DNA of 63,708 bases, filler included, from Stramenopiles sp. TOSAG23-3 (Eukaryota): assembly GCA_900128585.1 (NCBI GenBank). It is 8 parts of 8 records of this genome, joined end to end, with 100 filler letters (N's around TTAATTAATTAA, not from the genome) between each part and the next. Parts side by side here need not be neighbours in the genome. Positions count along the whole stretch, not along the records: positions 11,759 to 23,346 come from LT642733.1; positions 23,447 to 34,997 come from LT642734.1; positions 35,098 to 46,633 come from LT642735.1; positions 46,734 to 58,218 come from LT642737.1; positions 58,319 to 60,049 come from LT645474.1; positions 60,150 to 61,879 come from LT645475.1; positions 61,980 to 63,708 come from LT645476.1; 1 more part is not named here. One strand, written 5' to 3'. The notes beneath the pieces are model-generated. The model was not told the origin of the DNA, did no database searches, and saw nothing but the letters and a program-made list of their open reading frames with translations. The translations under genes were made by a program, and so were the position numbers. This document shows, piece after piece, positions 13,845 to 62,150 of this stretch (position 1 is its first letter; each line of letters opens with the position of its first letter).

Positions 13845-13870
13845 AAAATAACAGCCAATTTTTCTTGTTT
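13845..13870 (-). promoter_or_regulatory. Conserved 3'-flank motif, copy 1 (AAACAAGAAAAATTGGCTGTTATTTT)
   Basis: 46 nt downstream of the stop of the minus-strand gene ending at 13916; near-identical copies on three other contigs. Confidence 0.55.
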
Positions 13871-13915
13871 CTCTAATGCGTACGTTACGCTTACTTTACT
13901 CTTCGCGCAAAAACG

Positions 13916-15793
13916 TCATTCAGGATCTGAGTGTTCCGGTGTGCTCTGCAAGAAGCCAGCATTGAGCGCGTACATGGTGATATTTTCATCTAGCGAGTTT
14001 GCCAAGAGGTCCCGTTTCATACCAATGATCTCGTCACATGTTTTTAGCATAGATATCGAGCTGCGGTCGGGCTGAACTTCTATGATGCCCATTCGAGAGA
14101 GCCAAGAAATTGCGTTGTTAAACGCTGGGTCGTCCAGCCCGTCGTCGTGCTTTATGGACTCAGCCATCATAAAATAGTCCTTTGCCCGACTGTGCAGTTC
14201 TTCAATGTTTATCACCACACCATGGGACTCTTTGGAGGAGGCGTCTTTCCCGTCCCGAAAACGGTTTTCTAACAAAGCCTTAAAACTGGTTTGATCGTCT
14301 TTGAACTCCCATGCAGCGTTGAGCACACTAGCAATTGCAACAAAATCGTTGTCTCGAGACTCTTTCGTCACGATGTACACCACGCTCCGGTCCTTGCCAG
14401 TGGCATTGTTGTTAAGATACTGCGCCATAGCGCTGCGGTAGTAAAACTTACTCATTCGGTACCGGTTGAAAATTCTCACAACGTATGCCCCCAGGGCCGT
14501 CATGGCGATGACTCCCGGCTTGGTCAGGGCAACGCCGGTAAAGAACACGGTGCTAGCAACTCCCGTACCGCCAATAATTGACATGGCGAGAAAGAGGCGA
14601 TCGACGGGCCGCATGTATACTTTCTGCGCGGTGTCGGGCAAGACAAACTCCATGTCGCATCTTGGAACATGCTTGAAATGTCGGAGGCTTACGTACTTTT
14701 TGAAATCATCTTTCTTCCGTATCTCCGGGTCGGGGTAGCCCGCTGTACCATATACGACCAAAGCATCCTTAAACGTTTCTTCCTCCAACTTAATTCTACC
14801 AACAAGGTTAGAAAAAGTAAATTCTATCTCCGAAAGTGCGTTGTTGTTCGTCACTGAGTTTGTCAAATTCGTTTCGCCCCCTTTCCCGTAATTCATATCG
14901 TCGACGCCCTGTGCCTTGCCTGACGCCATCGGCGTTCTCTCGTCCCCCGTGATAGTCTGTATTAACTTTTCCATTTGTGGCTTGCCTTTGGACCACATTG
15001 CAACGGTCCTAGATTTTACAAAGGTCATCTGCCGTTCATGCTTTTCCATTCCCAAGATGTTTCTCACTCTATTCGTAGCCGATGCGTACGATCGCTGGGC
15101 AAACCTGGTCGTCAGTTCGTCGAACTTTTCGGTGTAATAGAAACCGGTCGTAGAATCGTTCCCGGACCCTCTTACCAAAAGCAACGCCCGTTTTGAGAAC
15201 GAAGGTGGCGTTACGTCCTCAAATCTGCGCGCGTACGGGTCCGATTCTTTTAAAATCCTGTCATCAAAATACGACCAGTCAATCTTCATGGGCGTTGTCA
15301 AGCGGTAATGGTTCTCCTTCGCGTACATCTCATCTTCCATGCTGCAGGCCTTAAACCCAGACCGTTTTGCAAACCACGTCAGCCCATTTACAAACTGGCT
15401 GGCAACTCGCAGCTCTTCCTCCCTTAGTTTTACTTCTGCTTCTTCCGTTTCATTGTCAAATTCTATTATTTCGTGGTTTTCATTGGCCTTCTTGCCATTC
15501 TCAATTTCAAGCTCCCCCCGCGGTCTGCCTTGGCTGTCAATGGCTGGTTCAAGCGAGCTGTACAGGGAGTGAAGTTTTTCTTCGACTTGTCCATATTGCA
15601 GTTGCAAAGACGCGTATATCGTTCGTAACGCCTCACGTTCACCGTCTTGCTCAAACAGGTTCTGCAAGAACCGACTACGCAACGACCCCTTTGGGCGGTA
15701 CTTACCCGAAACTAGTTTACGATTTTTCCTCGAAAGGTTTGACACTAAATGTCTCACCAGTTGCCACCGGAACGGAGTGTTCTGGCGCGACAT
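13916..15793 (-). CDS. DUF3754/TMEM143-like membrane protein
   Basis: LRHFKHVPRCDMEFVLPD...MRPVDR followed by two hydrophobic helices resembles the DUF3754 core. First ATG is at 15793. A GTGAGT...TTTGCCAG intron-like stretch lies upstream at 15853-15927, so the real start may be further 5'. Confidence 0.65.
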   Translation of the reverse strand: MSRQNTPFRWQLVRHLVSNLSRKNRKLVSGKYRPKGSLRSRFLQNLFEQDGEREALRTIYASLQLQYGQVEEKLHSLYSSLEPAIDSQGRPRGELEIENGKKANENHEIIEFDNETEEAEVKLREEELRVASQFVNGLTWFAKRSGFKACSMEDEMYAKENHYRLTTPMKIDWSYFDDRILKESDPYARRFEDVTPPSFSKRALLLVRGSGNDSTTGFYYTEKFDELTTRFAQRSYASATNRVRNILGMEKHERQMTFVKSRTVAMWSKGKPQMEKLIQTITGDERTPMASGKAQGVDDMNYGKGGETNLTNSVTNNNALSEIEFTFSNLVGRIKLEEETFKDALVVYGTAGYPDPEIRKKDDFKKYVSLRHFKHVPRCDMEFVLPDTAQKVYMRPVDRLFLAMSIIGGTGVASTVFFTGVALTKPGVIAMTALGAYVVRIFNRYRMSKFYYRSAMAQYLNNNATGKDRSVVYIVTKESRDNDFVAIASVLNAAWEFKDDQTSFKALLENRFRDGKDASSKESHGVVINIEELHSRAKDYFMMAESIKHDDGLDDPAFNNAISWLSRMGIIEVQPDRSSISMLKTCDEIIGMKRDLLANSLDENITMYALNAGFLQSTPEHSDPE

Positions 15794-16591
15794 TTCGGGG
15801 ACGCAGCGTCGCCAGTACGAAATCAATGCGTGGTAATAATTTCCGATATAAACTGGCAAAATGTAAGGACTGTGTTTGTGCGTTTCTCAAAAATTGTGTG
15901 TGGTGCTGGTGGGAGAAATACACTCACATATTGATTTACAATTTGTCGAGAACGTATATATAAAAACAAACGAAGAAAGAGAAATACTACACATTTTTTG
16001 TTGTTGTTTGTGTTGTGTACTTTGTTGTTGTGCTATAATAATAATATAATAATAATATAATTTTATTTTTTTGGGTAACGTTTTAAATCGATCACTACAA
16101 CAAAATAATTCTCTTCCAAAATGATTAAATTAATATACAAACAGCATCTAATAATAAATATATTTTCAAGTAAATAAACATCAATACCACCAACAACAAT
16201 TCTCTTTTTTTCTTTTTTTCCTCTTCTCTTTATTTCCTTCTTCTTTCTTCTTCTTTTCTTCTCGTCTCTTTCTTCTTCTTCGCGCATTTTTCATTCTACA
16301 AACACAATACCAACACAGCATCAACTTTTTAGATGAAAATTCTCTCTTTTTCTTGGAGAAATAAATAGGAATATAATTGTATAGTATATTTGTTATAAAT
16401 ACAAATGATACCAGGAAAGTGAAAGAGCAACGTTCTTTTCCACGCATGTACTTTTGCATATACTAATGCGTTTGTTTACGTATGTTATGGTATACAAAAA
16501 TGATATTCGATAGTATTATTGTTATGTTAATGGAAGGAATGGTATTGTTTTCAATTCAGTACACTATTACTGGTATATATATTCGTACTTG

Positions 16592-17728
16592 TTATTTTTT
16601 CCCTGTGTTTTTCTTTGACTTTCCCGATCCAAACAGTGCTTTTGCACCCATTTTAAAGCCTTTGCCTGCTAAGCGAGCAGCAGCGCCGCCTACAGCCACG
16701 GCCGCACCGACGGCTTGGTCTCCTGCCGTCTTTGGTTCACCCTGTTGTTGCTGTTGTCGTTGTTGCTGGTGCGGTTGAGCTGGCGCGGTTTGGTACGCCA
16801 CAGGGGTTGCCTGGACGGGTTGGGCGTACACTACGGGTACGGGGGCTGGGCGAGAGGGCGGGGCGTAGGCTACGTTTGGTTGCCTATTCATGTCCTGCTG
16901 CACTGGATTCCTAGCTGCAACCCCATTTTCCATGTCTCGTTGGGCCTGCATGGCCTGCCTTGCGTTCATCTCTGCCTGGGTAGGGCAGCAGGTGTCTCCG
17001 CAGCAGCACCGGCCGGCCATGACGCATGGGCTTTTCTCTCCGCCGCACTCGCGTGTGCAGCACCCATCGTTGATGCTACCTTCCACCGCCGCGTAAATAA
17101 AAGCGAAGAAACCAACCCCAAAGAACACCCAGGTCAAGGTCAAAATAACGTCGGCCATCACATTAAGCTCGTTTTCACGGCAGCCTTTGGCGGCGGCGTC
17201 TGCCTCCATGTCAATGCCAGAACCCAAGATCGCCCACACCAGTGCAAATATCAAGAAACAAATGTAAAACGCCATGACGACGTCCTCGCATACCAGGTGG
17301 CAGAGTCGCTTGTAAAAGGATTCCCCGGGGTACTGGGGCACTTGGAACTTCTTAAACACGTAGTATGCCATCATAAAATGCAAAATAAACGTCACGCCTT
17401 GGACGATGCACCATACGTCGAGGTTAATGCCCGCGCTCTCGGCTACCGCACACTCGGGCCTTGCGTTCGCTCCCACAAACCCAAAAAGTACGAAGGACGG
17501 CAGAAGGGTCAAGAACAGTGCGGCGGCGACAAGCGTGCTGAACGGCTTTGCAAAGAATTCCTGGAGGTTGCAGCACTTGGCCAGTTCGGCGCAGCACGGC
17601 CCAAAAGTCTCCCCACAGCACTTGGAACACTCTTCGCAGCACTCCCCAAGCGCGTTGCAACACGCGTTGCACCCCTTCGCACACCATTCGAAAGGTTTTA
17701 GGATGGTACGGCAGATTACGGCAGCCAT
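16592..17728 (-). CDS. Cys-rich four-TM membrane protein with Pro/Gln-rich tail
   Basis: Four hydrophobic segments flanked by CC clusters. Likely start MAAVICRT at 17728; the ORF extends to an ATG at 17863. Confidence 0.7.
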   Translation of the reverse strand: MAAVICRTILKPFEWCAKGCNACCNALGECCEECSKCCGETFGPCCAELAKCCNLQEFFAKPFSTLVAAALFLTLLPSFVLFGFVGANARPECAVAESAGINLDVWCIVQGVTFILHFMMAYYVFKKFQVPQYPGESFYKRLCHLVCEDVVMAFYICFLIFALVWAILGSGIDMEADAAAKGCRENELNVMADVILTLTWVFFGVGFFAFIYAAVEGSINDGCCTRECGGEKSPCVMAGRCCCGDTCCPTQAEMNARQAMQAQRDMENGVAARNPVQQDMNRQPNVAYAPPSRPAPVPVVYAQPVQATPVAYQTAPAQPHQQQRQQQQQGEPKTAGDQAVGAAVAVGGAAARLAGKGFKMGAKALFGSGKSKKNTGKK

Positions 17729-19221: not shown

Positions 19222-21195
19222 ATGGGGTGTGGTGCTTCTACCCAGGTGGCCACCACGACCCCGAAGAAAGGGAGCGTCAAGGAAGATAGGTTTTGCCAGT
19301 GCGAGACGGATGATGGGAGCCCGAGCTTTATATGCACGACCTGTAATAAAATTAAGTTGAAGAGCAAAACAGTAGTGAAGAAAGCGATCAGGTCGTCGAG
19401 AAAGAAGAAACAATTGAAGGAGTTGGACACGTCGCACCTGCAGGCGGGGAGCGACGGAGACGACGAGGAGGCCGGGGGAGACGGCAGAGACAGCCCCAGT
19501 CATCCCCCGCCAATGTCCCCAGGAAAGCGAAGAAATATTTTGACAGACATCATCGACTTGAAGATGTTCCAGGAAATGGCATTTAGAAAAGTGTTTAGAG
19601 ACAGCGACACGGACAAGAACGGGACCCTTACGGCCCCGGAATTTAGAGACATGGTGATAAAGTACCAGAAGGGCAAAGGGATTTACAGGCCCCCTACGAT
19701 GGCCGAGGCGGAGACTTTCATCAAGTACGCCGACCCGATGGCGAACAGCTGCATTGCCGAAAAGGGCTTTGTCGACACCATGATGGACACGGTGTACAAC
19801 CCATACCACAACTCGGGACAGATGAGCGACCAAGACCTCTGTCGAGCGCTGAAAAAAATAGAACAGTTCGGTACCATGGTCATAGAGCGCCTGGAACTCC
19901 GCGCGCTGACGCTGTACTCCCTTTTCCAAAAGTACTCCAACACGCACTTTATCCCGAAGAAGAACAGGTGGGTCAGCAACATTGTCGACAACAGCGACCT
20001 GTTCCGGATGATGAACGATTTCGCAGAGCTCCCCAAGCACAGACCGAACCAGAACGATGTCTTCCAATTCATGGCGTCCATGGATAGTTCTGGGGACATG
20101 ATCCTTCAGCCGCGGGAGTTTATGAGCTACATGCTGCATGGGATGGTGCAGAGCAAATCAAGCATCAAGCAGTTTGCCAAACGAAGCCGGATGCACAAGA
20201 AAATATCGTACTTTCTGCTATCGCTGGACAAGCGGATGACGGAGAACGAGAAGACGATAACCATAGACAAAAAGGCCCTCAAACGGTTGCTGAGCGAAAT
20301 CAACCACGTGCTCTCCGACGACAAGAAGGGCCCCGCGATGCAGTCCATCAGTACGCGCGAGGTGGGAAAAGGGATGTCCCGGGCTGACACCCTAACCGTG
20401 AACGACATTGCAAACCTTGCCAGCTCGGCGCAAGAGCACGACGAAATGCTAGACATCCATCAGTCAAAGCGAGACTTCGACGCGCGCGTAAAACGCAAGG
20501 CCATAGAAAAGAACCTGGTGCACAACAAACAAACGGAGCATACGCTGCAGAAGCTTCGGGAGCGGGAGAAGAGACGGGTCATGTCCCTGTACAACCCTAC
20601 AATGCTTCGGAAAGCTGCAGACGTAATGGACGACGGGGAGGTCAAAGATAGAATCTTAAAGATCGTCGGGGCGGCATCGCCGGAGGGCACGCGCAATGGG
20701 GGACGCAAACGGCGGAGCAAGAGGAAATCCAAGAAGCTGAACTTCAAGCGAGAGGCCTCTCGGAAAATGAGCGTATCGGCACGGAATGCGGAGAGGATCA
20801 GGGCTACGTTCCAGCAAAACCAAGAGATGCGGGAAGACCAGGCAAAGGTGGTACACGAGCGCCAGGCACGACACGCCCGAGAAAAGGTGCGCAAGAGACG
20901 TTCGTACAACCGCAAGCAGAAAAAGAAGAAGGCCGACAGAGCCGTCCCGCACCCACCCTCGGCCGATTCAACGCGAGATCAGAAGCAGGCAGAATTGCAA
21001 AACCCTGCGATGGTGCAGCCCCCGCCAAGAATATTGAACCCTGGCACGCAGGCGATGAGCTTGTCGTTCGGTAACGTCAAAATGGGGAGCGGTAGCGACA
21101 GTGACAACAGTGCGGGAGAGTTCGGGCAGTTGGGGTCCTCCTTTGATATAAGCCGGCCGGACTCTCGCGACTCGGAAATGTCTGTCCCGCAGTAG
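19222..21195 (+). CDS. EF-hand protein with N-terminal dual acylation motif
   Basis: Starts MGCGAS (myristoyl-Gly2, palmitoyl-Cys3 pattern); EF loops DTDKNGTLTAPE and DSSGDMILQPRE; basic C-terminal region. Confidence 0.8.
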   Translation: MGCGASTQVATTTPKKGSVKEDRFCQCETDDGSPSFICTTCNKIKLKSKTVVKKAIRSSRKKKQLKELDTSHLQAGSDGDDEEAGGDGRDSPSHPPPMSPGKRRNILTDIIDLKMFQEMAFRKVFRDSDTDKNGTLTAPEFRDMVIKYQKGKGIYRPPTMAEAETFIKYADPMANSCIAEKGFVDTMMDTVYNPYHNSGQMSDQDLCRALKKIEQFGTMVIERLELRALTLYSLFQKYSNTHFIPKKNRWVSNIVDNSDLFRMMNDFAELPKHRPNQNDVFQFMASMDSSGDMILQPREFMSYMLHGMVQSKSSIKQFAKRSRMHKKISYFLLSLDKRMTENEKTITIDKKALKRLLSEINHVLSDDKKGPAMQSISTREVGKGMSRADTLTVNDIANLASSAQEHDEMLDIHQSKRDFDARVKRKAIEKNLVHNKQTEHTLQKLREREKRRVMSLYNPTMLRKAADVMDDGEVKDRILKIVGAASPEGTRNGGRKRRSKRKSKKLNFKREASRKMSVSARNAERIRATFQQNQEMREDQAKVVHERQARHAREKVRKRRSYNRKQKKKKADRAVPHPPSADSTRDQKQAELQNPAMVQPPPRILNPGTQAMSLSFGNVKMGSGSDSDNSAGEFGQLGSSFDISRPDSRDSEMSVPQ

Positions 21196-21347
21196 AGTGT
21201 ATGAATGGCTCATAATATTTTTTTCTAGATACGATAAAGGCCCCTATAATATGACGATGTGTTCGTAGTATATTAATTTTAATGTCTTAAAGCATATCAT
21301 ACTAACATATGATATATAATTGTTTTGTTTTAATTTTGATTATGCTT

Positions 21348-21373
21348 AAATAACATGCCAATTTTCTTGTTTT
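21348..21373 (-). promoter_or_regulatory. Conserved 3'-flank motif, copy 2
   Basis: AAAACAAGAAAATTGGCATGTTATTT on the minus strand, 37 nt after the stop at 21410. Confidence 0.55.
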
Positions 21374-21409
21374 AAATATATTACGAATCTGCTCCTTGCT
21401 TCCTCTCAT

Positions 21410-22738
21410 TTACTTTTTCGTTTTCTTCAGACTGGGCAGTACGGATTTCATTACTCTTGCCCCGGGCCGCCTGGGCTGTGGCAAGGTCATTGTACCGTTC
21501 TGAGGGAGGGAGGCATCGGCCGCCCGCCCTGACGTCTCCTTGCCTGAAGGAGGCAAAGAGGCTGGTGGTGCGGGTTTTTTACTTGCGGCCTTTTCCTTTC
21601 CGGGCATCTTCTTACCCTTTTTGGCTTTCTTCGATTTCTTCTTCTTCGGTTTTGGTACACTTGGTCGCTCGCGCTTGGGCTCTTCGTTGTCCCCCTCATA
21701 CTCTGACTCCACCAATCTCTCTATGTTTTCTAGAATGGCATTCTTGGGCGGTTTTGGGCTGTTTTCGAGCCAACTGTCGACGCTCTCGCGAGACATGGAC
21801 CGGGACCGGCGCCGTGCCTTCTCCTCTTTTTTCCTGTCCTTCGACAGCTGTTTCTTCAACTTTGAAGAGCGCTTCTTGCTCGTTTTCTTCCTTCCCTTCT
21901 TGGCTTTCCCCGTCTGCGCCTCATTCGCCTGTGTCGCGGCGGCCAGTGCTTTCCGTTCTGCCAGGGCCTTCTCTCGCCGTTCGATGTCTAATGCCATTCG
22001 CTCAATGTCTTCTCTGGTGTAACCAACGATGTCGTTGTCGTCCAAGTATATCCGTTCCTGGGGTGGGCGAGTCACTAATTCTATCATGGTATCGTGTTCG
22101 CCCAACTCGTCGTCCGAACCGTCCCCCGTTTTCGGAACGCGATCTACGTGTTGGGCATGCTGCTTTCGCAACCTGGCCAGCGTTTTCCTCCGTTTGTAGT
22201 TGCTGTAACAGCTGCAACGTTGTTTGCAAAACAGCCTTCGCTCTTTTTTGGAAGAGCAGCATTTGTGACACAACACTCCCGGACACCATATGGGTGCCCA
22301 TGGCAGTGCTTCTGATTGGTGGCCCAAATGGTGGGCGATCCAAATGGTCCTAGAACCAATCCACACTCCAGCCAAGACAAAAAAGATCGACAGGGCCATG
22401 AATTCGTCGGCGTAAAAAAACCAGTGCTCGCTGAATTCCAAGATGGACGCGAAGAAGTAAAATATCCCCGTCCCACTCAGAAGGCCGGCGATCATCGTCC
22501 AGATGTATACGACAGACAGCGCGTTCAGCTGGCAGCAGCAACAACGGTGCTTCGCTTCGTTCTTTATGTAAGGGTCTTTGTGGCAAGGATTCAGCGTTTG
22601 GTACCAGGTGATCCCGTGCGTCCCGTCCCGCTCTCCCCTGGCCTCCAACCGCCGAAACCGGGCATTTCTCGCGTCCTCGTCTTTCCTTCGCCAATAGTCA
22701 TCTTCAATGTGAGAATCAAACACTTGCGCGGCCGGCAT
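21410..22738 (-). CDS. Hypothetical membrane protein, two TM helices, Cys clusters, Lys-rich disordered tail
   Basis: 442-aa ATG-started ORF in GC-rich DNA bounded by AT-rich flanks; convergent with the EF-hand gene. Confidence 0.7.
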   Translation of the reverse strand: MPAAQVFDSHIEDDYWRRKDEDARNARFRRLEARGERDGTHGITWYQTLNPCHKDPYIKNEAKHRCCCCQLNALSVVYIWTMIAGLLSGTGIFYFFASILEFSEHWFFYADEFMALSIFFVLAGVWIGSRTIWIAHHLGHQSEALPWAPIWCPGVLCHKCCSSKKERRLFCKQRCSCYSNYKRRKTLARLRKQHAQHVDRVPKTGDGSDDELGEHDTMIELVTRPPQERIYLDDNDIVGYTREDIERMALDIERREKALAERKALAAATQANEAQTGKAKKGRKKTSKKRSSKLKKQLSKDRKKEEKARRRSRSMSRESVDSWLENSPKPPKNAILENIERLVESEYEGDNEEPKRERPSVPKPKKKKSKKAKKGKKMPGKEKAASKKPAPPASLPPSGKETSGRAADASLPQNGTMTLPQPRRPGARVMKSVLPSLKKTKK

Positions 22739-23263: not shown

Positions 23264-23300
23264 GAAGGAAAGAAAGAAAGAGTCGAAAGAAAAGAGTCGA

Positions 23301-23344
<44 letters not shown>

Positions 23345-23346
23345 AA
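23264..23346 (+). repeat. (AAAG)n microsatellite at contig end
   Basis: Read directly from the sequence. Confidence 0.9.
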
Positions 23347-27747: not shown

Positions 27748-30700
27748 ATGAGCAAACTGATCCTCTTACTAGCTTTGTTGCTGCAAACGGTCGTTTTCGT
27801 AAGCTGTGCAAAGCTGGGAGACGCACAGTTAGTGTCGGGGTCCCAGAAGGCTAACGCTGGTCTGAATACCATCGTGTTTGACGACGACGGTAATGACAAC
27901 AACGAGGGGCTTCGTCCCCAACATCGTCGGCGGCTGCTGTCCAGATATCGTGGTCGAACCAGTGAACCGCTTCGCTTTTTGCAAACAAGAACATCGTGGG
28001 GCAAAAAAAAAAGGAAAAAAATGAAAAAAAAATGGAAAAAAATGAAGAAAAAATTTAAGAAAGGGGTTAAAAAATTTAAGAAAGGGATTAAAAAAGCGGC
28101 AAAATACACCGGGAAGGTAGCTAAAATTGCAGGCAAGGGCATCGCTAAAGGGGTAAAAGAAGCAGGCAAATATACCGTCAAAGGAGTAGTAGAAGCAGGT
28201 AAATTCACCGCCAAAATGGGGGAATCGATGTTACGGTGGATGGGTATACTCAATAGTGGGGACGTCAACTCTGCCGAAATTGCCCATTACTTGTCTCTTC
28301 TGGACCCTAAAGCCATATCTTACCCAAGTTATTCGGGAACGTGCCACAAAGGCGAAGGGCTTATTGTTACTGAAGCGAAACGTTTCTGTGGGGCACAAGA
28401 AGGCAAGGATAGCGCGGACACATCCGGCCTCATCACTGACGAAAAAACCTGTAGAGACGTAGCCATGAAATATTACGCAAGGCAGCACCCTGAGCTACAC
28501 GAAGGTGGAGAGTTTTTACGGTTCGGGAGAGATTTCATAGACAAAACCCCTACTAATGTCCTCCACCCATATCTGTTTGATAAGGTACCGCTTCCCCCCA
28601 AATACAAGCAAACGCCGATGCGTGAATACACGGAAACTGTAGCGAAACAGAAGAAGTTTAAAAATTGGGTGCCTTACAAAGGAGGCTCCGGGTTTAAAAT
28701 AGGGCGTCCCAAAGATAAACCGAGGGACGCCCCGAACGGTTGCTTTGTGTATGAAAATAAGTTTTATTTCAATAAAAAACATAACAAAGAAGCGCGCTGC
28801 TTCCACGCGAGGGAGAAGAAGAGTATGTTCTTGAACACATGTCTTTGCAAACCCAAGTGTAAGGCCTGCATAGGGAGCACGTACAATAGCGAAACATCTC
28901 ACAAGAATGAGTGCCTCAAATGCAACAATTTCACAATTTTAGATTCAAGGGAGAGGCACGTAGGCTGCACCAAAGGCAAAAGCTGTCCACCGGGTCATTA
29001 CCATGATTTGTCAAGGAAATTTTGTATCCCGTGCCCGAAGGGTATGTTCAGCTTCTCGGGCGACAGCCCCGATGGATACCCAGCCTTCTGTGTGGCGTGC
29101 CCCTTTGGGGAAACCACGAGGCGCAGTGGAACAGAGGGGGGAAAGGACGCGTGTATCGCAAAACCAGCGTACAGAGCCCAGTTGCAGAGAGAGAAAAGAG
29201 CGGCGAAGAAAGCCGAAACGACCGTCAAAGATCTTACAAAGTTGCGGGGAATCACCACTCAGCTCGTCACTGTAGTCGATGCTTCGGACACCACCAAAGC
29301 AAAGCTGGCAAGGAACATAGCAGAGGCAAACATTCAAGCAATTTACAACCGCCAGCAGTCGAATCGGTTACGCAGTGACATGAAGGCTGAAATGACGTAC
29401 TGCGAAAGGCAGCGCACTCCCGTGGGAGAAAAGAAAGAGGACAAAGGGTCTGCCATGGGCATGGTAATATTTCCAACGGTCCATATGGAGGAGGAGAGAG
29501 ACTCGACGGCATGCCTGAACATCAACAGGGACATGGCAGTCAACGCGTACTGCAACTTTAGGCAGGACTTTGACGACGTTCTGAGAGAGTTTGGCTTGTA
29601 CAACAAGAAAATGGCATCAGGAAAGGCATTTTGGCCAAACATTTGCTGTGCATCGGTAAAGGACGATTGCATCCATACAAATGGTATAGCTCAGACAGAC
29701 ATGATACCCTTTGTCTTGGCCCAAGGGGGGAAATTGACCCCAGAAAGTTTGCGTGGAGAATTGTATAGTATGCTTGGAAGCCACTCTCAAAATTCTATCC
29801 GAAGCGACGGGCATTTACTGAACGGTATGAAGGCGGCGCTCCAGTACGTTACAAGAACGACGCGGGTGGGGGTGGAAAAGGCAAACGTGGCCTTTGTACA
29901 GTTGTTTGAGAATCTGAATCTGTGTGGCCCCCGTGTTTTGAAATCTCCCAAGAACGAGGAAGCCCACCTGTGCGAATTGTTCTACGCATACCCCCACATG
30001 ATGCAGTCTTTTCTTTCCCAATTTAAGGGATTGTTAGAGGCGAAAGACAACGGAGCTAATGGCGACCCTCTTCCAAGAAATTCACATGGTAGGAAACTGC
30101 TTACTAAGCCCACCAGCGAGCACGAAGCGATTGCTGTACTAAAAGCAGTGTTGCAAAAGGTGGATAAAGTGGAGAAGTCGGACGAAGCGCTTCGCAAAGA
30201 GAATAGGGAGATTCGCGCGAAATTAGAGGCCCTGACCGAGTTGGCGCAAGGCGGACAAGCAGACGTTGGGCGGAAAGAGAAAATTCAAAAGAAGAAGCAA
30301 CAGGGCTGCCCCAAAAGCTTGAAGAGAAAGTTTGAGACAAGGGAAGAGTTAAAAAAGATGCAGAGTCACTTCTGCACCGAATATGGGCTGGACTTGGCGC
30401 ACAAAGACATCGTGAATGTTGCAATGGTGTACATTGAAGACAACCTCCGAACCAAAGAGAAAGGCGGCGCCGGCGTCCAAGAAGTTTACCGTCGGCGCAT
30501 CAGTGAAAATATCAAGTACTCCGTGACCGACCAGTGCCAGTTTGCCCCGTTGTTCACGACCGAAGACATTTCCATTCAGCAAATTGAAAAGATGGACGCA
30601 AAGTCCACCGACAAATTAAAGAAGGAGTGGGTCATGCTAATAGTGCTCGATTCTGGCAACGAGAAAGGGTACTTGAAACGCGAACTACAGAATGGAAAGT

Positions 30701-31362
30701 GCAGCAAAGTGGATTATTTGCCCCACACTGAAGTTGGGCTGCAGCTTTACTCTGACACGAATGGGTGCTGCCATGGAACGAGGAGCTACGACGAGTGCTC
30801 GGATATAGGCTGCGGACTTACCCGCGTCCAGCATCACTGGAGGGACCAATCGTTGTCGTTCAAACTTGTCGTGACCGGAACCACATTTCGGTTCTTGCTG
30901 CACGAATCGTTGTTGGAAGGGACAAAATTCACGTCCCCGTCGAAGACGAACCACCTGAAACTGGGCGAGGACGTGAATTCTGGGGACGTTACAAACGCCG
31001 ATAACAAGGGCACAAGTCTGCTGGAAATGTCCTCTCCAACAGCAAAGTCTATCCTCGACTCGTTCAAGGAGACTGTCACAGGAAACTGTGCGGGTTTCGA
31101 CGGAAAGGTCCTCTTCAAGAACGTCGGGGTCGACGCGGAGAAGAAGTTTTCATTCAGTTGCAAGCTGTCGCCGAACCTGTGCCGGTGCGTTACCGCCAAC
31201 AAGGCCGAAAACAAGAAAACTGTCTTTAGCAACGGCAACGTCAAGTTTGTGCTCGAGGGGGATGGTCAGTATGTATCGTACGAATACGAAGTTCGGCAAA
31301 GAAGAAGAAGAATTCTTGGGCGCACGAGCATGCAGCGATTCCGTGGAGGTGGCGGGTCGTAG
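27748..31362 (+). CDS. Large secreted precursor: cationic amphipathic segment, Cys-rich and TNFR/GCC2-GCC3-like repeats, coiled coil, C-terminal RRRRIL tail
   Basis: Signal peptide; RRRLL, RFLQ, RKLL and RRIL sites; CPPGHY...CIPCPKGMFS...CVACPFGETT repeats. Confidence 0.8.
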   Translation: MSKLILLLALLLQTVVFVSCAKLGDAQLVSGSQKANAGLNTIVFDDDGNDNNEGLRPQHRRRLLSRYRGRTSEPLRFLQTRTSWGKKKRKKMKKKWKKMKKKFKKGVKKFKKGIKKAAKYTGKVAKIAGKGIAKGVKEAGKYTVKGVVEAGKFTAKMGESMLRWMGILNSGDVNSAEIAHYLSLLDPKAISYPSYSGTCHKGEGLIVTEAKRFCGAQEGKDSADTSGLITDEKTCRDVAMKYYARQHPELHEGGEFLRFGRDFIDKTPTNVLHPYLFDKVPLPPKYKQTPMREYTETVAKQKKFKNWVPYKGGSGFKIGRPKDKPRDAPNGCFVYENKFYFNKKHNKEARCFHAREKKSMFLNTCLCKPKCKACIGSTYNSETSHKNECLKCNNFTILDSRERHVGCTKGKSCPPGHYHDLSRKFCIPCPKGMFSFSGDSPDGYPAFCVACPFGETTRRSGTEGGKDACIAKPAYRAQLQREKRAAKKAETTVKDLTKLRGITTQLVTVVDASDTTKAKLARNIAEANIQAIYNRQQSNRLRSDMKAEMTYCERQRTPVGEKKEDKGSAMGMVIFPTVHMEEERDSTACLNINRDMAVNAYCNFRQDFDDVLREFGLYNKKMASGKAFWPNICCASVKDDCIHTNGIAQTDMIPFVLAQGGKLTPESLRGELYSMLGSHSQNSIRSDGHLLNGMKAALQYVTRTTRVGVEKANVAFVQLFENLNLCGPRVLKSPKNEEAHLCELFYAYPHMMQSFLSQFKGLLEAKDNGANGDPLPRNSHGRKLLTKPTSEHEAIAVLKAVLQKVDKVEKSDEALRKENREIRAKLEALTELAQGGQADVGRKEKIQKKKQQGCPKSLKRKFETREELKKMQSHFCTEYGLDLAHKDIVNVAMVYIEDNLRTKEKGGAGVQEVYRRRISENIKYSVTDQCQFAPLFTTEDISIQQIEKMDAKSTDKLKKEWVMLIVLDSGNEKGYLKRELQNGKCSKVDYLPHTEVGLQLYSDTNGCCHGTRSYDECSDIGCGLTRVQHHWRDQSLSFKLVVTGTTFRFLLHESLLEGTKFTSPSKTNHLKLGEDVNSGDVTNADNKGTSLLEMSSPTAKSILDSFKETVTGNCAGFDGKVLFKNVGVDAEKKFSFSCKLSPNLCRCVTANKAENKKTVFSNGNVKFVLEGDGQYVSYEYEVRQRRRRILGRTSMQRFRGGGGS

Positions 31363-31391: not shown

Positions 31392-31415
31392 ACAAGAAAA
31401 ATTGGCTGTTATTTT
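31392..31415 (+). promoter_or_regulatory. Conserved 3'-flank motif, copy 3
   Basis: ACAAGAAAAATTGGCTGTTATTTT, 30 nt after the stop at 31362. Confidence 0.55.
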
Positions 31416-31764: not shown

Positions 31765-34530
31765 TTATGTCAGCTCAAACCCTTCCGTGTTCTCCATCGC
31801 ATAGATCAACTTTGACTTTAAAATTTTGGGGGACTCGTACGGGGGCAGCACCAGCTGGTTGAAGCATGTGTGGGCCCGGGGCAGGGCGTTCAGAGGGTCG
31901 CCCTCGGCCAAGGTCAACGTAAACGGAGGATCGTAACTGTCCAGTGGAAACTGCGACGTCCCAGTGCAAAATTTAAGGACCAGGCGCTGCTCATCGCTTG
32001 ACATTTTCTTGAAACACTGCCAAAAGTAATGCACGGTAGTGCTGGCGGAAGTGTACCCCCCGGTGTACTGGGACTTTGCCCGCAGGCCGTCGAGGTCGAT
32101 GTCCGACCGACCGTTGAGGAGCATGCCCAACTCGTTCGGCCGAAGGGTCGCAGCAGCCGAGGGTGGAATCAATGTGTGGAAGCCCCTCAACACTGCGGCC
32201 AGCTGGGCGGAGACGCTGTCCCTCAGCTTCCACTTTGAAATAGCCTGGACATATTTCGCTTTGTTCTCGTCCGTTACGTCAATGTACTTGCCTTTCGGAA
32301 CAATCTCGAACTCTTCCATGACGCCAAAGTTGTCCAGGAACACGGAAAATTTCTCGTAAATAACCCCGTCAATCTCATTGTGCAGCATCCAGTTCAAACC
32401 GATAAAGTACTGTGGGTCAAGCTCACCAAGGTCCTCCAGGCGCAGCGGTTTGCCACAGAGAACCCGCAGGAACCCCTGGCTCAACCGGCAATCGATCATG
32501 TGGCGCTCAAAAATGGCTTTGGCCAACAGCTTTCCGAAGAACTCGAAGTACTTCAAATGGTCTTCGTGGGCGATGCCGGATCGGGGGTCGATGTGGTAGC
32601 AGTTTCCGCCCTTAAAATGTTTGAACAGGCAGAGCCCGGGCTGCAGCAGCTGTTTCGATACGCTCAAGAACCAGTCCTTCGTCAGACCCCCGCTGTCTAT
32701 CCCTGGCTCGCCCTGAAACTCGATTCTCAGCTTTGCCCGCAGCTCGCTCATGGAAAAGTTCGAGAACGCGCGGAAACTTTCCGGTAACATCCGGTCGCGC
32801 TTGATGTTCAGGTTTTGGACGACCCTGTTCGTGTGGGGCGCGCCCCACAGGTAAAACAGAAACGCAAACCGTTTCTTTGCGAACGCCATGGCCAGGGGGG
32901 GCAACGTCAACGTTTCCGGGGGGTCCCATTGGGTCGCGCCCGAGTCTGCGTGGTAGTAGTAGGTATCCCCCGTCCTCTCGTCCACCTCTTCGGACCACCC
33001 CAGCGGCAGCTCCTCCCCACTTCCTCGCCGGTTGGCGTAGACATGGTCGGTCTCGTCCAGGGTTCTCACCTCGGTGACGGGGGACGCCAGCTTTCGGCCG
33101 TCCGGGCAAATGTAGTACAGCTTAAACTCATACTCCGTCCCTGGGATCAGCGATGCCCCCGTCTCCCCAACATTGAAGGAGGTCCCTTTCCCCATGAACA
33201 ACACGACGAAACCGTTGCCGCTTTCTTTTCGCTTTCCTTCGAGCTTGTACGTCACGCTCACGCCGATCCTGGGGTCGGGGGGGTCCCACTTGAACAGGAC
33301 GGTGTTTGCCGTGACGGTAGCGCACTCTGGCGCCAGCGGGTTCGTCAGTTCGGGCGAGGTCGTTTGCACCATTGTCGACGGCTCGGAAAATGCGCTCCAC
33401 CCGCCGCCTGGGGATGCCGCACGAACGCGAAATTCTATCAGGTCGCACATCGGGGGCAGGCCGTCGATCACGCACTGCCTTGCAAACTTCTTCAGGAGGG
33501 ACCGGGGCACGCTGTACCAATCGTGTTCGTCCGGCGTCGCCGTGCTGTTGCCACCCTTTGTGCCGTGGCCGACGTACCAGTCACGGATGACCGAGCTTGC
33601 CCCGGGCCGGAGGGGGCTTTCGCCCTTCTTTCCCTCCTCCCCGGGGGCCTCCCCGCCTTCCGACCCCTCCTCGGACCTCTCCTCCTCTTCGCCCTGAACT
33701 TCCCGCCACTGGACGTCCCACTGCTCTATCATTGCGTGGCAGTTCGGGCCCTTTCTCCACGAAACACGGATCGACGTTGCGGTAGACCCAACGTCCGGGC
33801 GGTGCGGTTTCATCGGGGTCGTGTCCGCAGCCGTGAGGAGGACGTCGTTCCGTGCTTGCGTGGCGTGCTGAAACATTCGAAAGTCGTCGGCGGCCTGCGT
33901 GTCTCCGATGAATAGTTTTGACGTTGGGCTGTTCGGGTCCACCGTAAGCTTTCCCACTTCCGATAACCGCCGCTGCCGAGAGGCTTCGACGAGCTCTTGG
34001 GTCTTTCTCCCCGCCTTTGTCGTCCCGTACAGCTGCTGGTGCGATTCCCCCGTTTTCTCCATGTTCTCGGCGACCGACAGGGAGCGCCGTCGCTGGAACG
34101 CGTTCCCCTCCCCGAACAGGATCGACTCGACGGCCATCAGGTTCCTGTCCGCTTTTCCTTGTGCAATGAGCACCCTGCACTCCCTCTCGGTTCGATTTTT
34201 AGCAGCGCTGTGGGTCTTCTCCAAGAGTTTCCGGCGCGCATTGTTCGGGCTCCCGGGCGATGACTTCGGGCTGGAGGCGTTCGACTTCGTGCTTATTTCA
34301 GACCCCGTCCGAACGAGCTCCCCCCGTTTCAAATACTTTTGCTCCTGGGGCGACGACGCCGAGTTCAGACCCGAGGACTGCCCCCCCCCCCATTCGTTCA
34401 GGTTGAAGCGCCTGTCAAGTAATGTGCTCTGGTCCACGATCCAGTTAAACGGTAATCATGATCGCCAACGGTTTCGTTCTCGCGCAAATTTACAATCAGA
34501 CAATGATGATGCCACACACACCTGCCCCAT
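31765..34530 (-). CDS. HECT E3 ubiquitin ligase with two FN3 domains and a WW domain; probable 9-nt first exon (34530-34522) and intron 34521-34429
   Basis: HECT motifs F-x-GEPGIDSGGL-x-x-DWF and LPRAHTCFNQL; WW LPLGWSEEVDERTGDTYYYH...TQWDPP; FN3 patterns. ATGGGGCAG|GTGTGT...TTTAAC...GACCAG| splices in frame (MGQ-STLLDRR). Confidence 0.9.
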
Positions 34531-35101: not shown

Positions 35102-35346
35102 CATAATCAACTTCCTCATCCGGTGTCCCACTCATAGATGACTCATTCCTTGTGTGATTTTCAAAGCAGCGGCGTATTGTTTTAGAGGTGCTCGTTGTCT
35201 GACACCTCAGTTCGCAAATGACAATTCCTTGACTGGTTTACAAGACAGACAACGAGCACCTTTAAAACAATTACGCCGTTGCTTTGAAAATCACACAAGG
35301 AATGAGTCACCTATGAATGAGACACTGGACGAGGAAGTTGATTATG
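35102..35346. repeat. Imperfect inverted repeat, ~100-bp arms (35102-35201, 35246-35346), 44-bp loop
   Basis: Arms differ by 7 transitions and 1 indel; a homologous single arm lies at 61983-62085. Confidence 0.9.
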
Positions 35347-35499
35347 TGTCATTTGGAAGCATTGCTAATCCATCTACCGATCCAGATTATGAATGGAGTA
35401 CACCTGAGAATGATAGTCAACACTAAGTGACAAGGGTATACCGATTAGTAAAACCAAAAGAGCAAAGATAAGTTCGCAGTACATGAATTTTAATTACTT

Positions 35500-35525
35500 A
35501 AAATAACAGCCAATTTTGTGTTTTT
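35500..35525 (-). promoter_or_regulatory. Conserved motif, copy 4
   Basis: AAAAACACAAAATTGGCTGTTATTTT on the minus strand; no clear intact gene immediately upstream. Confidence 0.45.
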
Positions 35526-35747
35526 AAATATGACTTGCTGTTGCGGAAATGAAGTAGGAAACCCAAAAGCCTCATCAGGAAGGCCAAATACTGTCCCCAT
35601 TCGCGTTTCTGGTGCGCTCCGAAGGGTAGTGGTGCGCTCCGAAGGGTAGACATGGGTGGGAATGGCCCAGTATACAGCTTCATTCTCGGATACATAGCCC
35701 TGGGTGTTGTATCTGTGAGCAGTGTTGTGAGTGACTGAAATTATTCC

Positions 35748-45371: not shown

Positions 45372-47849
45372 TAATTTTAGGACTTAACTGGAAGGTTGAA
45401 TGGACCGTTTCATCTTCGCTGAGAGACCATTTACATACTAGGGATGGTCTGATACGTGAAGGAGAGAACAGAAAAACTAATGTTGTAGACAGTGCCCCTC
45501 CGAATAAAGCCAAAGCCAATGGGACGCATCGGGAACAACGAAGCGAGCAAGCTAGTTTTGGTTTGCATGATTCTATCAACGAATCTTATATTACGGATTC
45601 CGCCCTTGATATCAAATTAAAAGCGTGGTTTTACCGTTTTGATTATGTCGAAAAATGGACAACTGCTTACAAGAGGAAGCATGGCGTAATAGCCAGCCAA
45701 AACGAAAAAAATAAAGACCTAGAATTTACTCGTAACTTCCTGAGAATGATGCAGCATTCACGTGATCTGAAACGTATAGGTTGTCTCGAACCACTTGTTG
45801 CATTTAAGGAACGATGTCTACACCCCCAGGCTGATATGAGAACAGTGTCAATTCCGGGCCAAATCAAGAAGATAGATTTTACTGTGAAAAAGTCTGATTT
45901 TCAAACGCTAACAAAAAATTTTGCTCTGGAGTGGTCTAGATCACCCGCGCAAACTCTTCATTTTCACACTCCACGAAATTCGAGAAAACTAAAGAAATAA
46001 CAAAATTGGCCATTGGGGGGGAGGGGGGGGGGGGGTTGGCGTACCAGGTACCTGTACTGATGTAGAAGCCGTTCTGTAACCTAATTATATGTTACGCTTT
46101 GTACACGGAGTACAGCTACACATTCGACGATGTACATTTTCGCAAAAGCGATTGTAACAAAAAAGCCTCGTTTCTTTTCCGTTCCACAAATTATAGATTA
46201 GCGGACTGCCCTCTTAGTAGTATGTCAACAATTTGCAATATTAACTGATATGCGACGAATATCTCTTTTGAACAATCTATTATCCGGTTTTACTTATCCC
46301 CGTCCAAGATAAGACCCGCTTCGGGCCTCCGTTTCAGAAAAAAATAACAATTAAGGTTTAAATTTTAATTTAACTATTTCGAATATTGTATGACCATTTG
46401 TAATATAATTTCCTATGAAATTCGAAATCACAACTTGCTGTATCACACTAATAAATTCTATTATTCCAAGTGCTAGTCGTCTAAATGTCGCATTTTAAAT
46501 CTTTTTTGTGAATCTGCCCAATGATGCCAATGATGTATTTTTATTAAATATATTATCCCCTGCTGATACTAGTCCAGGGACCAAAAATTAACGAAAACGA
46601 AAACGAAATATATGAAAATAAGGAAATAATAAGNNNNNNNNNNNNNNNNNNNNNNNNNNNNNNNNNNNNNNNNNNNNTTAATTAATTAANNNNNNNNNNN
46701 NNNNNNNNNNNNNNNNNNNNNNNNNNNNNNNNNCGAAAACGCATTCTATCGAAGCGAGTGATATCGACGACATTCGAGTATTCGGTGAAAAATCTGTGCA
46801 CCACATAATGAATGTATAATAATATTATATCTGGTAGTTAAAATCACCTTAACGTATTAAGGGTTATATAAGCTATTCCTACCAGAAATATTACACCGCG
46901 AAGCAAGAGAAGATCGACATAACATGCGATGGAAAGTACAATACACAACGTCCGAAATTTGTAACTAAATAAGTTATAAGTACACAAAATGTAAATAAAT
47001 GGATGGTGTGATGGTGTTAATAAAGTAGTAAATTCAGCTTTTAATCAATCCTCGTACAAGTAAGAGTACAGATAAGAATATCACTAACATGAACACAACA
47101 CCTGACGCATAGAATTTTGATACATAGGATGTACTAACATTTAACACTACATAGTCTGGTAAACAATTGGAAGAGTAAGTACAAAAGTTGCTTAAAGCTA
47201 AACTTACTTAAATCTTAAATTATATCTAACATACTCAATTACAGCGACAGGACCTTAAGCGACTATAATACAATACAAAATACAAAATTATACACTAACA
47301 CAATTTAGACTACGGGGAGGTTACTAATTAAAATAATTTAATTTAAGAAATTTATATATTTTATATATATGGTAAAATATCCACTCTTTTAATTATTACT
47401 CTCCAGAAGAAGAGGATAAATAAAGGAGTTTCTTCTTTTTTTTCTTCTTCTTTTTTTCATCACACCATCACAACATCATCATTTTAATATAATACTAAAA
47501 TATAATAGATTATTAAATTAGTAGTAGTACTACAACAATAATTAATTATTATTAATAATAAATAAATAATAATAATAAAAAAAAAAAAAAAAAAGAAGAA
47601 GAACAACGGAGGATGATGGATTGTTATTGTTGGTGAAGCACATTTTAGATTGTATAGTAAGAAGACATTAAAATGTAGATTTAGGCGGTGAAAAAAGTGT
47701 GAACCAACAAACCTAATGACGAACAAACCACACAGCGGATTTAATTACTACTTCCACGACGGTGTGTGGTCTGGTCTGGTCTGGCCACTCTCTGTGTTTA
47801 TTTATAGACTTGTACTTCTTAGAGTTGAACGGGCGAGAGTGAATTGGTG

Positions 47850-60049: not shown

Positions 60050-60839
60050 NNNNNNNNNNNNNNNNNNNNNNNNNNNNNNNNNNNNNNNNNNNNTTAATTA
60101 ATTAANNNNNNNNNNNNNNNNNNNNNNNNNNNNNNNNNNNNNNNNNNNNGCCTAACTGCATAAGTTTAGATCATGCACTGGTTCCGTTTACGATGCTTAG
60201 CCCTCGACGAACACTTGTAAATTGTTTGCCCTCGAATGACCTGGAAATGCGGTTCCAAGGGACAATTTATTGAGAAATGGACGATTTGGACCAAACGCCG
60301 CCCACATGAACAGTTATTTGTTCGTGCGATATGAACAAATGAATGGTACGCGCTCAATTTCATGTATCTTAAACCACTTTTGACAGGTTAAATTTTTTTA
60401 AATTATACTTTATTCATAAAGATCTCTTTGTCTCAAATAGTTAACACAAAGGCCTTTGCAACTTTTCAATTCCGCGCCAAAGATACTTGACTCCGCAATG
60501 TTTCGTACTCTTTCTGTTACTTATGCTGTGTCTACATTGGGTCGGAGCGGGGAGGAGAGAGGAGGAGAGGAGGTGAGAATTATATTTTTTTTTTTTATAT
60601 TTTTTTTTTTTTTGAATTTTTCAGAAAAAGAATCAATTATTACAGTTGAAGTTTTCTATTTATCTACCGCCCAAAGCGGAGTGCTTATTAGTCGTCGTAA
60701 ATTGCAGACGATATGTTAATTTCGTGCAATCTGAAAGTTCACTTGTGATCTCGAATTTTTTTATTGGAATCTTGACTGCTGGTTGTATTTTTATGTTTTC
60801 GTTTCCTGCAGAATTTTGTCAGTAGGTTTTGTCTTGAAT

Positions 60840-61670
60840 ATGGGCACCGACGATGTTCTTGTCGTGTTTGCCGTCCTCCTTTCGGCGCCCTGTTTCCTTT
60901 TTTGTGTTTACTTTCTTTACGAATGCTTCGTTTTTGTACTTTTGTGTGTGTTTGGTAGAAAGAGGAGTGGGTTTATCCAGAAGTTTAATTGGACCATTCG
61001 AGATGGTCTGACGACGCTGTGGTGCTGCGACCGTGGCAAATGGCGTCCTGCGGAGAGCCAACGCCCCCAACTATGGCACATACTTTTTAGACCGCTGGGG
61101 CCTTTGCCCACCGGGACGTATGGGAAATATGAGTTCCACGATGGCGATGATCCGGGCAGGCATCCCAATAAGTGCGACTATTGTTGCAGGCGCACTGGGA
61201 TACACCTGACTAGAATAGAAATGTCGGCCGCTGCCAGTAATAAGAAAACAGAGTCGGACAAGGTGCATCTAAAAATCTGCTCTTTCCTGTGCTGTGTTCG
61301 TGCGGACTTGGCCACTTTGACCAAGGATAGGGTTTGCGATTGCTTGTTCATGCTGCTGGCCTCACTTGGCTATGGGGCATGCGGTTTTACTTGGTGCTTC
61401 CTTTTGTGGTTTATTTCCTCTCAGGTTGGCGGAGGTGCTCAACCGTTCTCTGAGTACTTTTCTTGGTCCGCTGGCACTGCGGGGGTTTTGTCCTTGCTCT
61501 GCCTCGTGTGCAATTGTGGGTATGTCAGGTACGAGCGATTTCCAACCCGCTTTTTTTCAAACGTTCGAACAACGTACGTTCCGGGCGCAGAAGTAGGCGA
61601 CGACAAAGGGATAGAACTGACGGATATATGCGCGTCAATAGAGGGGCCCATAGACGATGGAGACTATTGA
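60840..61670 (+). CDS. Hypothetical Cys-rich membrane protein (about 3 TM)
   Basis: ATG at 60840; hydrophobic N-terminal helix and two C-terminal helices. Confidence 0.6.
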   Translation: MGTDDVLVVFAVLLSAPCFLFCVYFLYECFVFVLLCVFGRKRSGFIQKFNWTIRDGLTTLWCCDRGKWRPAESQRPQLWHILFRPLGPLPTGTYGKYEFHDGDDPGRHPNKCDYCCRRTGIHLTRIEMSAAASNKKTESDKVHLKICSFLCCVRADLATLTKDRVCDCLFMLLASLGYGACGFTWCFLLWFISSQVGGGAQPFSEYFSWSAGTAGVLSLLCLVCNCGYVRYERFPTRFFSNVRTTYVPGAEVGDDKGIELTDICASIEGPIDDGDY

Positions 61671-61982
61671 GTGATGGGAAGAGTATGATACGTTCGTCGT
61701 TTTCATTAAAAAATTAAACAATGTAAAGAGATTTTCCCCCTTAATTATTAAAATAAATGCTGGACGACGGGGCGCTTGTCTTACAGCGAACAGAAGATCG
61801 CCCGGTATTCAGGTGGGACACTTTTATTTCGCCGTTGCGGTCTGGGGCTGCTTTTCTGATGCACCCCCTTGTAATTTTANNNNNNNNNNNNNNNNNNNNN
61901 NNNNNNNNNNNNNNNNNNNNNNNTTAATTAATTAANNNNNNNNNNNNNNNNNNNNNNNNNNNNNNNNNNNNNNNNNNNNAAC

Positions 61983-62085
61983 CGTAATCAACTTCCTCAT
62001 CCGATATCTCACTCAGAGATAAATCAACCCTTGTACCATCTTCCAAGCAGCGGCTTAAATGTTTTTGAGGTGCTCGTTGTCTGAC
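61983..62085. repeat. Dispersed repeat homologous to the 35102-35346 hairpin arms
   Basis: Shares taatcaacttcctcatccg...aagcagcggc...gaggtgctcgttgtctgac. Confidence 0.85.
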
Positions 62086-62122
62086 TTTGAAATCGGTCCT
62101 GTTTTATTAAAAAGGACGTTTT

Positions 62123-62150
62123 AAAACAAGAAAATTGGCTGTTTATATTT
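62123..62150 (+). promoter_or_regulatory. Conserved motif, copy 5
   Basis: AAAACAAGAAAATTGGCTGTTTATATTT, about 50 nt beyond the CNNM stop but antisense to that gene. Confidence 0.5.

What the first reader, a model, noticed from the sequence alone, without database searches (positions are those of the whole stretch)
13845..62150. A ~25-bp motif recurs near gene 3' ends on four independent contigs
Seen: ACAAGAAAA(A)TTGGCTGTTATTT variants at 13845-13870(-), 21348-21373(-), 31392-31415(+), 35500-35525(-) and 62123-62150(+). The first three lie on the sense strand 46, 37 and 30 nt after the stop of unrelated genes, each between convergent genes. Copy 5 is near the CNNM stop but antisense; copy 4 has no clear gene. 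A partial ACAAAATTGGC follows the ORF ending at 46000. Flanks are not otherwise homologous. Inference: a lineage-specific 3'-end processing, termination or boundary element much longer than AAUAAA, or a very short dispersed repeat.
Basis: partly seen in the sequence, partly recalled or inferred. Interest (0 to 1): 0.72.

Follow-up and report, generated by a model that had tools for sequence, protein, structure and literature searches.

The report
Truncated retrotransposon tails behind genes
The repeated motif is the fixed tail end of a jumping gene (an R2-like LINE retrotransposon) of a marine eukaryote, whose mostly very short copies pile up just behind genes; it is an ordinary kind of mobile element in an unusually narrow niche, not a signal that ends messenger RNAs.

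Summary
The five copies are real; the 17-nt core occurs 1,597 times in the 28.4-Mb genome, control 0. The motif is the constant 3' terminus of RLE-type non-LTR retrotransposons. Overlapping copies lead from it through a 3' UTR and a CCHC/restriction-like endonuclease to a reverse transcriptase. Window copy 4 runs ~330 nt into the element. Target-site duplications of 10-17 nt bracket 14 of 190 copies, null 1.2. The 3'-end bias holds: 26 of 74 convergent, 13 of 85 tandem, 1 of 57 divergent gaps. The strand bias does not (38 sense, 32 antisense), and 193 of 241 genes lack the motif, so it is no general 3' signal. Long copies show 38 insertions, 12 substitutions and 1 deletion in nt 3-33 (44 copies): probably stuttering initiation of reverse transcription. 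Targeting versus selection is unresolved; no transcript ends or empty sites were obtained. The scan found this before on other DNA of this genome (e1-7172367, e1-7136330).

The parts
13845..13870 (-). Copy 1: solo 3' terminus of the retrotransposon (strand given = motif/cDNA strand; element sense is the opposite), in the gap between convergent ORFs 12208-13722(+) and 13916-15793(-)
   Evidence: extension not above control; identical in the one other locus found, L199
21330..21373 (-). Copy 2: ~44-nt terminal fragment, between convergent ORFs 19222-21195(+) and 21410-22738(-)
   Evidence: 91% over 44 nt to L058
31392..31415 (+). Copy 3: solo terminus between convergent ORFs 27748-31362(+) and 31765-34137(-)
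35201..35526 (-). Copy 4: terminus plus ~330 nt of the element (3' UTR and end of its ORF); a 5'-truncated copy
   Evidence: 80% over 322 nt to L173, 90% over 288 nt to L164
35098..35201 (+). Inverted piece of the same element joined to the truncated end of copy 4 (fold-back); runs off the contig end
   Evidence: 94% over 106 nt to L164 in the opposite orientation
61980..62098 (+). Internal fragment of the element (antisense to the end of its ORF), at a contig start, head-to-tail with copy 5
   Evidence: 96% over 119 nt to L123; 41 matches in the genome from 40 of 247 candidates scored
62123..62150 (+). Copy 5: solo terminus, about 50 nt behind and antisense to ORF 62199-63524(-)
46001..46011 (+). 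Possible ultra-short (11-nt) terminus directly after the stop at 46000; undecided
   Evidence: 3 such words versus 1 control word in 625 kb

Best explanation
The motif is the reverse complement of the last ~25-35 nt of the RNA of a group of RLE-type (R2-group) non-LTR retrotransposons; at least five subfamilies share this end and diverge after ~35 nt. Shown: the end is joined to an RT-thumb-CCHC-RLE reading frame, copies are constant at this end and variable at the other, some carry 10-17-nt target-site duplications ending in an A/T-rich word, and some sit inside older copies. Inferred: the endonuclease nicks A/T-rich DNA, the A-rich 3' end pairs with the U-rich RNA tail and primes reverse transcription; the enzyme slips, adds A/T and re-primes during the first ~30 nt and often aborts there, leaving 25-100-nt stubs; repeat insertion into the same gaps builds patchworks in both orientations. 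Copies sit almost only within ~300 nt behind stop codons. Whether insertion is directed there (open or transcription-termination DNA; I put about 55%) or copies elsewhere are purged (about 45%) is not settled. The confidence below is for the identity of the motif.
For: Chain of DNA overlaps at 78-98% identity from RT core (L208/L210) via thumb (L203/L198/L202), L205, L181/L194, L159/L182, endonuclease region (L158/L164) to L173, which runs contiguously from the motif to the end of that region. RT: sister-family ORF L197 hits Pfam RVT_1 at E 8e-7, Atlas RT clusters 0.96; L208/L210 are 51-53% identical to it. Endonuclease region aligns motif by motif with the C-terminus of RT relatives (hhalign prob 74, E 3e-5), whose profile hits R2 proteins best in PDB (E 1e-44; L1 5e-23). 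TSD of 10 nt or more in 14 of 190 copies, null mean 1.2, max 4 of 30 permutations. 20 of 75 sample copies extend over 100 nt, control 1 of 75. 27 of 44 long copies carry insertions, 37 of 39 in the first 30 nt; 2.9 insertions per 100 nt there versus 0.4-0.6 deeper. Niche.
Against: No single intact full-length copy and no 5' end was seen; the link to RT rests on overlapping fragments of different copies. RVT_1 score (29.4 bits) is just under the cut-off (29.6), and a family search of the genome listed 8 RT matches; the five fetched looked like another retroelement type and three were not fetched. The endonuclease model was poor (pLDDT 41) and Foldseek gave nothing at E<=0.001. 176 of 190 copies show no TSD under the test used, and a first, narrower TSD test on 74 copies showed no excess (6 versus mean 3.1). 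None of the five window copies had a TSD called. The first 30 nt are 80% A+T against 61-66% in the UTR controls, so part of the insertion excess may be composition. No empty site was found.
Confidence: 0.92

Rival explanations
1. Same element, but the niche is made by selection alone: it inserts at any A/T-rich site and copies near promoters or in 5' UTRs are purged in a large population.
For: Target words in the TSDs are only A/T-rich and such words are about as dense in divergent as in convergent gaps (TTAA 18.8 versus 24.4 per kb), so the enzyme shows no sequence basis for the bias. PMC1635306 (passages) raises the same possibility for EhLINE/EhSINE.
Against: Among positions over 300 nt from any predicted ATG, clusters are 7.9 per 10 kb within 300 nt of a stop and 0.26 per 10 kb over 1 kb from one (34 of 39 clusters, p=1e-8). 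Copies 120-300 nt upstream of an ATG exist in tandem gaps. Divergent gaps tolerate microsatellites (27 of 57 versus 2 of 74 convergent). Gene starts are ORF-only predictions, which weakens this.
Confidence: 0.42
2. The stubs have been domesticated as terminators, poly(A) signals or mRNA-stability elements for a subset of genes, as SIDERs were in Leishmania.
For: Location within 300 nt of a stop for 48 of 241 genes; A/T-rich; precedent in PMC2323293 (abstract).
Against: No strand preference (38:32, tandem gaps 9:6), wide distance spread, clustering and nesting typical of insertion hot spots, no stable RNA fold of the end (z 0.2-1.7 versus shuffles).
Confidence: 0.08
3. The motif is an independent host 3'-processing or boundary signal that the element merely captured or targets.
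For: Strong bias to gene 3' ends; many copies look solo (55 of 75 do not extend beyond control lengths).
Against: TSDs lie outside the motif and bracket it with the element fragment, so the motif arrives with the insertion; 193 of 241 genes lack it; either strand.
Confidence: 0.03
4. Terminal inverted repeat of a MITE or other DNA transposon.
For: 9 of 30 neighbouring pairs face each other, one almost as a perfect palindrome.
Against: 29 of 45 clusters are single copies; 16 of 30 pairs are head-to-tail; the sequence behind the motif leads to RT and RLE, not a transposase.
Confidence: 0.01

Closest known systems
EhLINE1/EhSINE1 of Entamoeba histolytica
   Same: RLE-type non-LTR element, dispersed in intergenic DNA near genes, T-rich 3' tail proposed to pair with A-rich target DNA, TSDs, no specific target gene (PMC1635306 and PMC3118788, passages).
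   Different: The passages seen report no preference for gene 3' ends ('convergent' does not occur in PMC3118788). Here the abundant form is a 25-100-nt stub of the LINE itself, not a separate SINE.
CRE-group elements (CRE1/2, SLACS, CZAR, Cnl1, MoTeR, FoTeR)
   Same: RT followed by C-terminal CCHC and RLE; the H, C and HN spacings and an AD-type catalytic motif fit the pattern in PMC12857005 (section 16); truncated copies outnumber full ones. RT motif signature looks CRE-like (recalled, not tested by a tree).
   Different: Those insert in spliced-leader genes or telomeres; this one is dispersed. First Cys spacing is longer, RHN reads PHN, and ~56 residues separate the two catalytic Asp.
R2 (Bombyx, Taeniopygia, structures 8GH6, 9DOU, 9NL3)
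   Same: Best PDB hits of the relatives' profile. Non-templated addition and template jumping by its RT (PMC8857657, abstract) fit the A/T fillers and head-to-tail patchworks.
   Different: R2 is specific for 28S rDNA. Non-site-specific R2-like elements exist (PMC7650587, abstract: random distribution), unlike the 3'-biased one here.
Leishmania SIDER1/SIDER2
   Same: Around 1,900 short retroposon copies almost only in 3' UTRs of a protist (PMC2323293, abstract).
   Different: SIDERs are extinct and shown to regulate mRNA stability; they come from a different LINE group (recalled). Here open RT/RLE frames and 96%-identical copies persist, and no function is shown.

Membership tests
RLE-type (R2-group) non-LTR retrotransposon | Reverse transcriptase upstream of the endonuclease in the element | tested here: met
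   Overlap chain RT to motif; RVT_1 E 8e-7 on sister family, just under cut-off; Atlas 0.96. Built from fragments of different copies.
RLE-type (R2-group) non-LTR retrotransposon | C-terminal CCHC plus PD-(D/E)xK-like endonuclease motifs | tested here: met
   Invariant C1, C11, H20, C24, H34N35, A98D99, D156, E171, K174, Y178; hhalign prob 74; variant spacings. No Pfam hit.
RLE-type (R2-group) non-LTR retrotransposon | Endonuclease fold like that of R2 | tested here: inconclusive
   Model pLDDT 41; no Foldseek hit at E<=0.001; R2 ranked 3rd at E 1.8.
RLE-type (R2-group) non-LTR retrotransposon | Constant 3' end, variable 5' truncation | tested here: met
RLE-type (R2-group) non-LTR retrotransposon | Target-site duplications | tested here: met
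   14 of 190 copies, null mean 1.2; one of the 14 (L177) is probably chance.
RLE-type (R2-group) non-LTR retrotransposon | Full-length copy without LTRs or TIRs | not tested
   The 5' end was not recovered.
CRE clade | Placement in the CRE clade on an RT tree | not testable with these tools
   No labelled CRE sequences among 20 relatives looked up; the resemblance is recalled.
CRE clade | Specific target (spliced-leader genes, telomeres) | tested here: not met
   Dispersed; TSDs share only A/T richness.
Host 3'-processing or termination signal | Sense-strand orientation | tested here: not met
   38 sense, 32 antisense; tandem gaps 9:6.
Host 3'-processing or termination signal | Present behind most genes at a narrow distance | tested here: not met
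   48 of 241 genes; 12-897 nt.
Host 3'-processing or termination signal | Poly(A) sites at a fixed offset from the motif | not tested
   No reads could be laid; transcript ends unknown.
SIDER-like domesticated retroposon | Inside 3' UTRs and affecting mRNA level | not testable with these tools
   Only distance to stop codons is known.
MITE / DNA transposon | Inverted repeats at both ends of each unit | tested here: not met
   29 of 45 clusters single; 9 of 30 neighbour pairs facing.
Known structured RNA family | Rfam match | tested here: not met
   0 matches in four loci with long copies.

The most novel reading that the evidence does not exclude
An RLE retrotransposon lineage that is actively steered to RNA polymerase II termination zones, for example by its U-rich RNA tail pairing with nascent poly(A) or by its protein binding the 3'-processing machinery, and whose RT passes through an abortive, stuttering initiation phase of ~30 nt. 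That would be a safe-harbour strategy at protein-gene 3' ends, which my searches did not find described for RLE elements.
Probability: 0.22. Interest if true: 0.68.

Novelty: new variant of a known kind. Interest (0 to 1): 0.34.

Why it matters
Practically, about 3,400 stubs (extrapolated) mimic a 3'-end signal and would mislead motif discovery and UTR annotation in this genome. Biologically, a 30-fold bias to the 300 nt behind stop codons is a narrow niche for a non-site-specific LINE. If it proves to be targeting, it gives a new safe-harbour route and a handle on how R2-type enzymes pick sites. The copy-specific insertions in the first 30 nt are a genomic record of how this RT starts synthesis.

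Tried and rejected
One metagenome scan found a single locus, 99.9% identical and carrying the motif: no empty site. Viral contigs: 0 exact matches. Rfam: none. Pfam on the endonuclease region and its relatives: nothing relevant. phmmer of the RT against PDB: 0. Structure model and Foldseek: inconclusive. Folding the RNA end: no stable structure. The lenient extension estimate had no control and the script stopped early; replaced, which cannot resolve lengths under ~90 nt. The first TSD test was negative. The five RT loci fetched from the Pfam search were tyrosine-recombinase-type elements by eye and are unrelated. Base composition does not explain the bias (A+T 0.66-0.68 in all gap types). Host lineage: the Atlas gave only 'Eukaryota'; not determined. 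Clade names for relatives: none informative.
Full report
Observation. The window is eight contigs joined by N spacers from a 28.4-Mb, 7,088-contig eukaryote assembly; its lineage was not determined. All five copies are at the stated places, and copies 1-3 lie about 46, 37 and 30 nt behind a stop between convergent ORFs. In the window alone a 14-mer is marginal (3 of 100 shuffles reach 4 matches). In the genome the 17-nt core occurs 812+785 times, the reversed control 0 times.

The motif is the end of a longer element. Flanks of fetched copies are unrelated upstream of the motif and shared downstream for variable lengths. At least five continuations (subfamilies, sorted by eye) share the first ~35 nt. 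Window copy 4 continues ~330 nt at 80-90% identity and ends in an inverted piece; 61980-62098 is an internal piece of the same element. The opposite strand reads as a 3' UTR, a low-complexity ORF tail and then a conserved domain. DNA overlaps of 78-98% identity link RT core, thumb, linker, that domain and L173, and L173 is contiguous from the motif to the end of the domain. No single full-length copy and no 5' end was seen.

The protein. The conserved domain has invariant Cys, His and acidic residues that fit, with variant spacings, the CCHC and REL pattern given in PMC12857005 (sections 16 and 19 read). It aligns with the C-terminus of 20 RT relatives at probability 74, and their profile hits R2 proteins best among solved structures. 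The sister-family RT hits RVT_1 at E 8e-7, 0.2 bits under the cut-off, and RT clusters in the Atlas at 0.96. A fold test was inconclusive. The RT motifs look CRE-like from memory; no labelled reference was available.

Insertion marks. Direct repeats of 10-17 nt bracket the motif plus a 38-350-nt fragment in 13 copies, and a 14th (L177) is probably chance; 14 of 190 against a null mean of 1.2 and maximum 4. The test needs 3 G/C in the word, so it misses A/T-only repeats; 176 copies gave none, and a narrower first test on 74 copies showed no excess. The repeats end in A/T-rich words at the motif start. At least six of the 14 lie, by eye, inside older pieces of the element, which explains the clusters (16 of 45 clusters have 2-5 copies). 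Of 75 sample copies, 20 extend over 100 nt (control 1 of 75); the other 55 cannot be told from control lengths up to ~90 nt. Match counts fall inward: 1,597 at the end, 185 at nt ~47-64 of one subfamily group, 36 at ~500-700 nt, 20 in the linker, 6 in the RT core; these searches differ and are lower bounds.

Stuttering start. Among 44 long copies of one subfamily group, 27 carry insertions and 37 of 39 insertions fall in the first 30 nt, 33 of them resembling duplications of neighbouring bases. Nt 3-33 hold 38 insertions, 12 substitutions and 1 deletion; deeper segments have substitutions far above insertions (277:13, 32:2, 11:1) and 0.4-0.6 insertions per 100 nt against 2.9. The end is more A/T-rich than the controls, which may contribute. 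I infer slippage and re-priming during initiation, which would also explain the excess of stubs. Non-templated addition and template jumping are known for R2 RT (PMC8857657, abstract; PMC2881922, passages).

Position. In contigs C1-C30 plus the window (625 kb, 254 ORF-only gene models; 30 of 7,088 contigs, all long) there are 75 hits in 45 clusters. Gaps occupied: 26 of 74 convergent, 13 of 85 tandem, 1 of 57 divergent (Fisher p=6e-7 convergent versus divergent). Of 74 non-coding hits, 70 are nearest a 3' end, against 34% of non-coding positions. Strand is even: 38 sense, 32 antisense; 9:6 in tandem gaps. Only 48 of 241 genes have a copy within 300 nt downstream, 2 of 232 upstream. A second repeat end with 193 exact copies shows the same bias (8 of 10 convergent). 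A+T content and TTAA density do not explain it, and microsatellites go the other way. Away from predicted starts, density is 7.9 clusters per 10 kb near stops and 0.26 far from them. This leans to directed insertion, but missing 5' exons or long promoters could mimic it.

Comparison and novelty. The closest system is EhLINE1/EhSINE1 (RLE, intergenic, T-rich tail; PMC1635306 and PMC3118788, passages); SIDERs share the 3' location (PMC2323293, abstract); PMC7650587 (abstract) shows non-site-specific R2-like elements. Searches (listings only) found no paper on this family or on RLE elements biased to protein-gene 3' ends; the library lacks most subscription papers and Repbase, and no supplements were read. 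My reading was set, which showed that the scan had reported this element twice on other pieces of this genome (e1-7172367, e1-7136330); those notes are not independent support.

Verdict. A real and abundant feature, explained as 5'-truncated tails of an RLE non-LTR retrotransposon (0.92). Not a general 3'-processing signal. The open point of interest is why copies sit only behind genes. Interest 0.34.

Noticed in passing
L200:1-1584 (-), continuing L192 (G000:C2821): A sister RLE family has a long C-terminal extension with motifs that recall Ulp1-type and OTU-type cysteine proteases (recalled); Pfam gave no hit.
   Followed up: partly
L043/L104 regions and 193 exact sites in G000: A second repeat end with a different terminal sequence but the same short T-rich tail and a related stretch further in; same bias to convergent gaps; not traced to an ORF, could be a non-autonomous partner.
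   Followed up: partly
L066 and similar copies, about 50-65 nt from the end: The 3' UTR of one subfamily group and of the second repeat holds a telomere-like word on the sense strand; possibly a relic of a telomere-associated ancestor, possibly chance.
   Followed up: no
L186-L190: Retroelements with overlapping RT and tyrosine-recombinase-like frames (DIRS/Ngaro-like by eye) occur in the same genome.
   Followed up: no
window 60150-60489: A non-coding stretch about 74% similar over 341 nt to L030 and 90% over 77 nt to L029; another dispersed repeat, not examined.
   Followed up: no
window 46734-46812: The first 79 nt of this contig are identical to the first 79 nt of contig C21 (L101): a collapsed repeat or assembly overlap.
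   Followed up: no
contigs C1-C30: Microsatellites concentrate in divergent gaps (27 of 57) and are rare in convergent ones (2 of 74), the mirror image of the retrotransposon stubs.
   Followed up: partly
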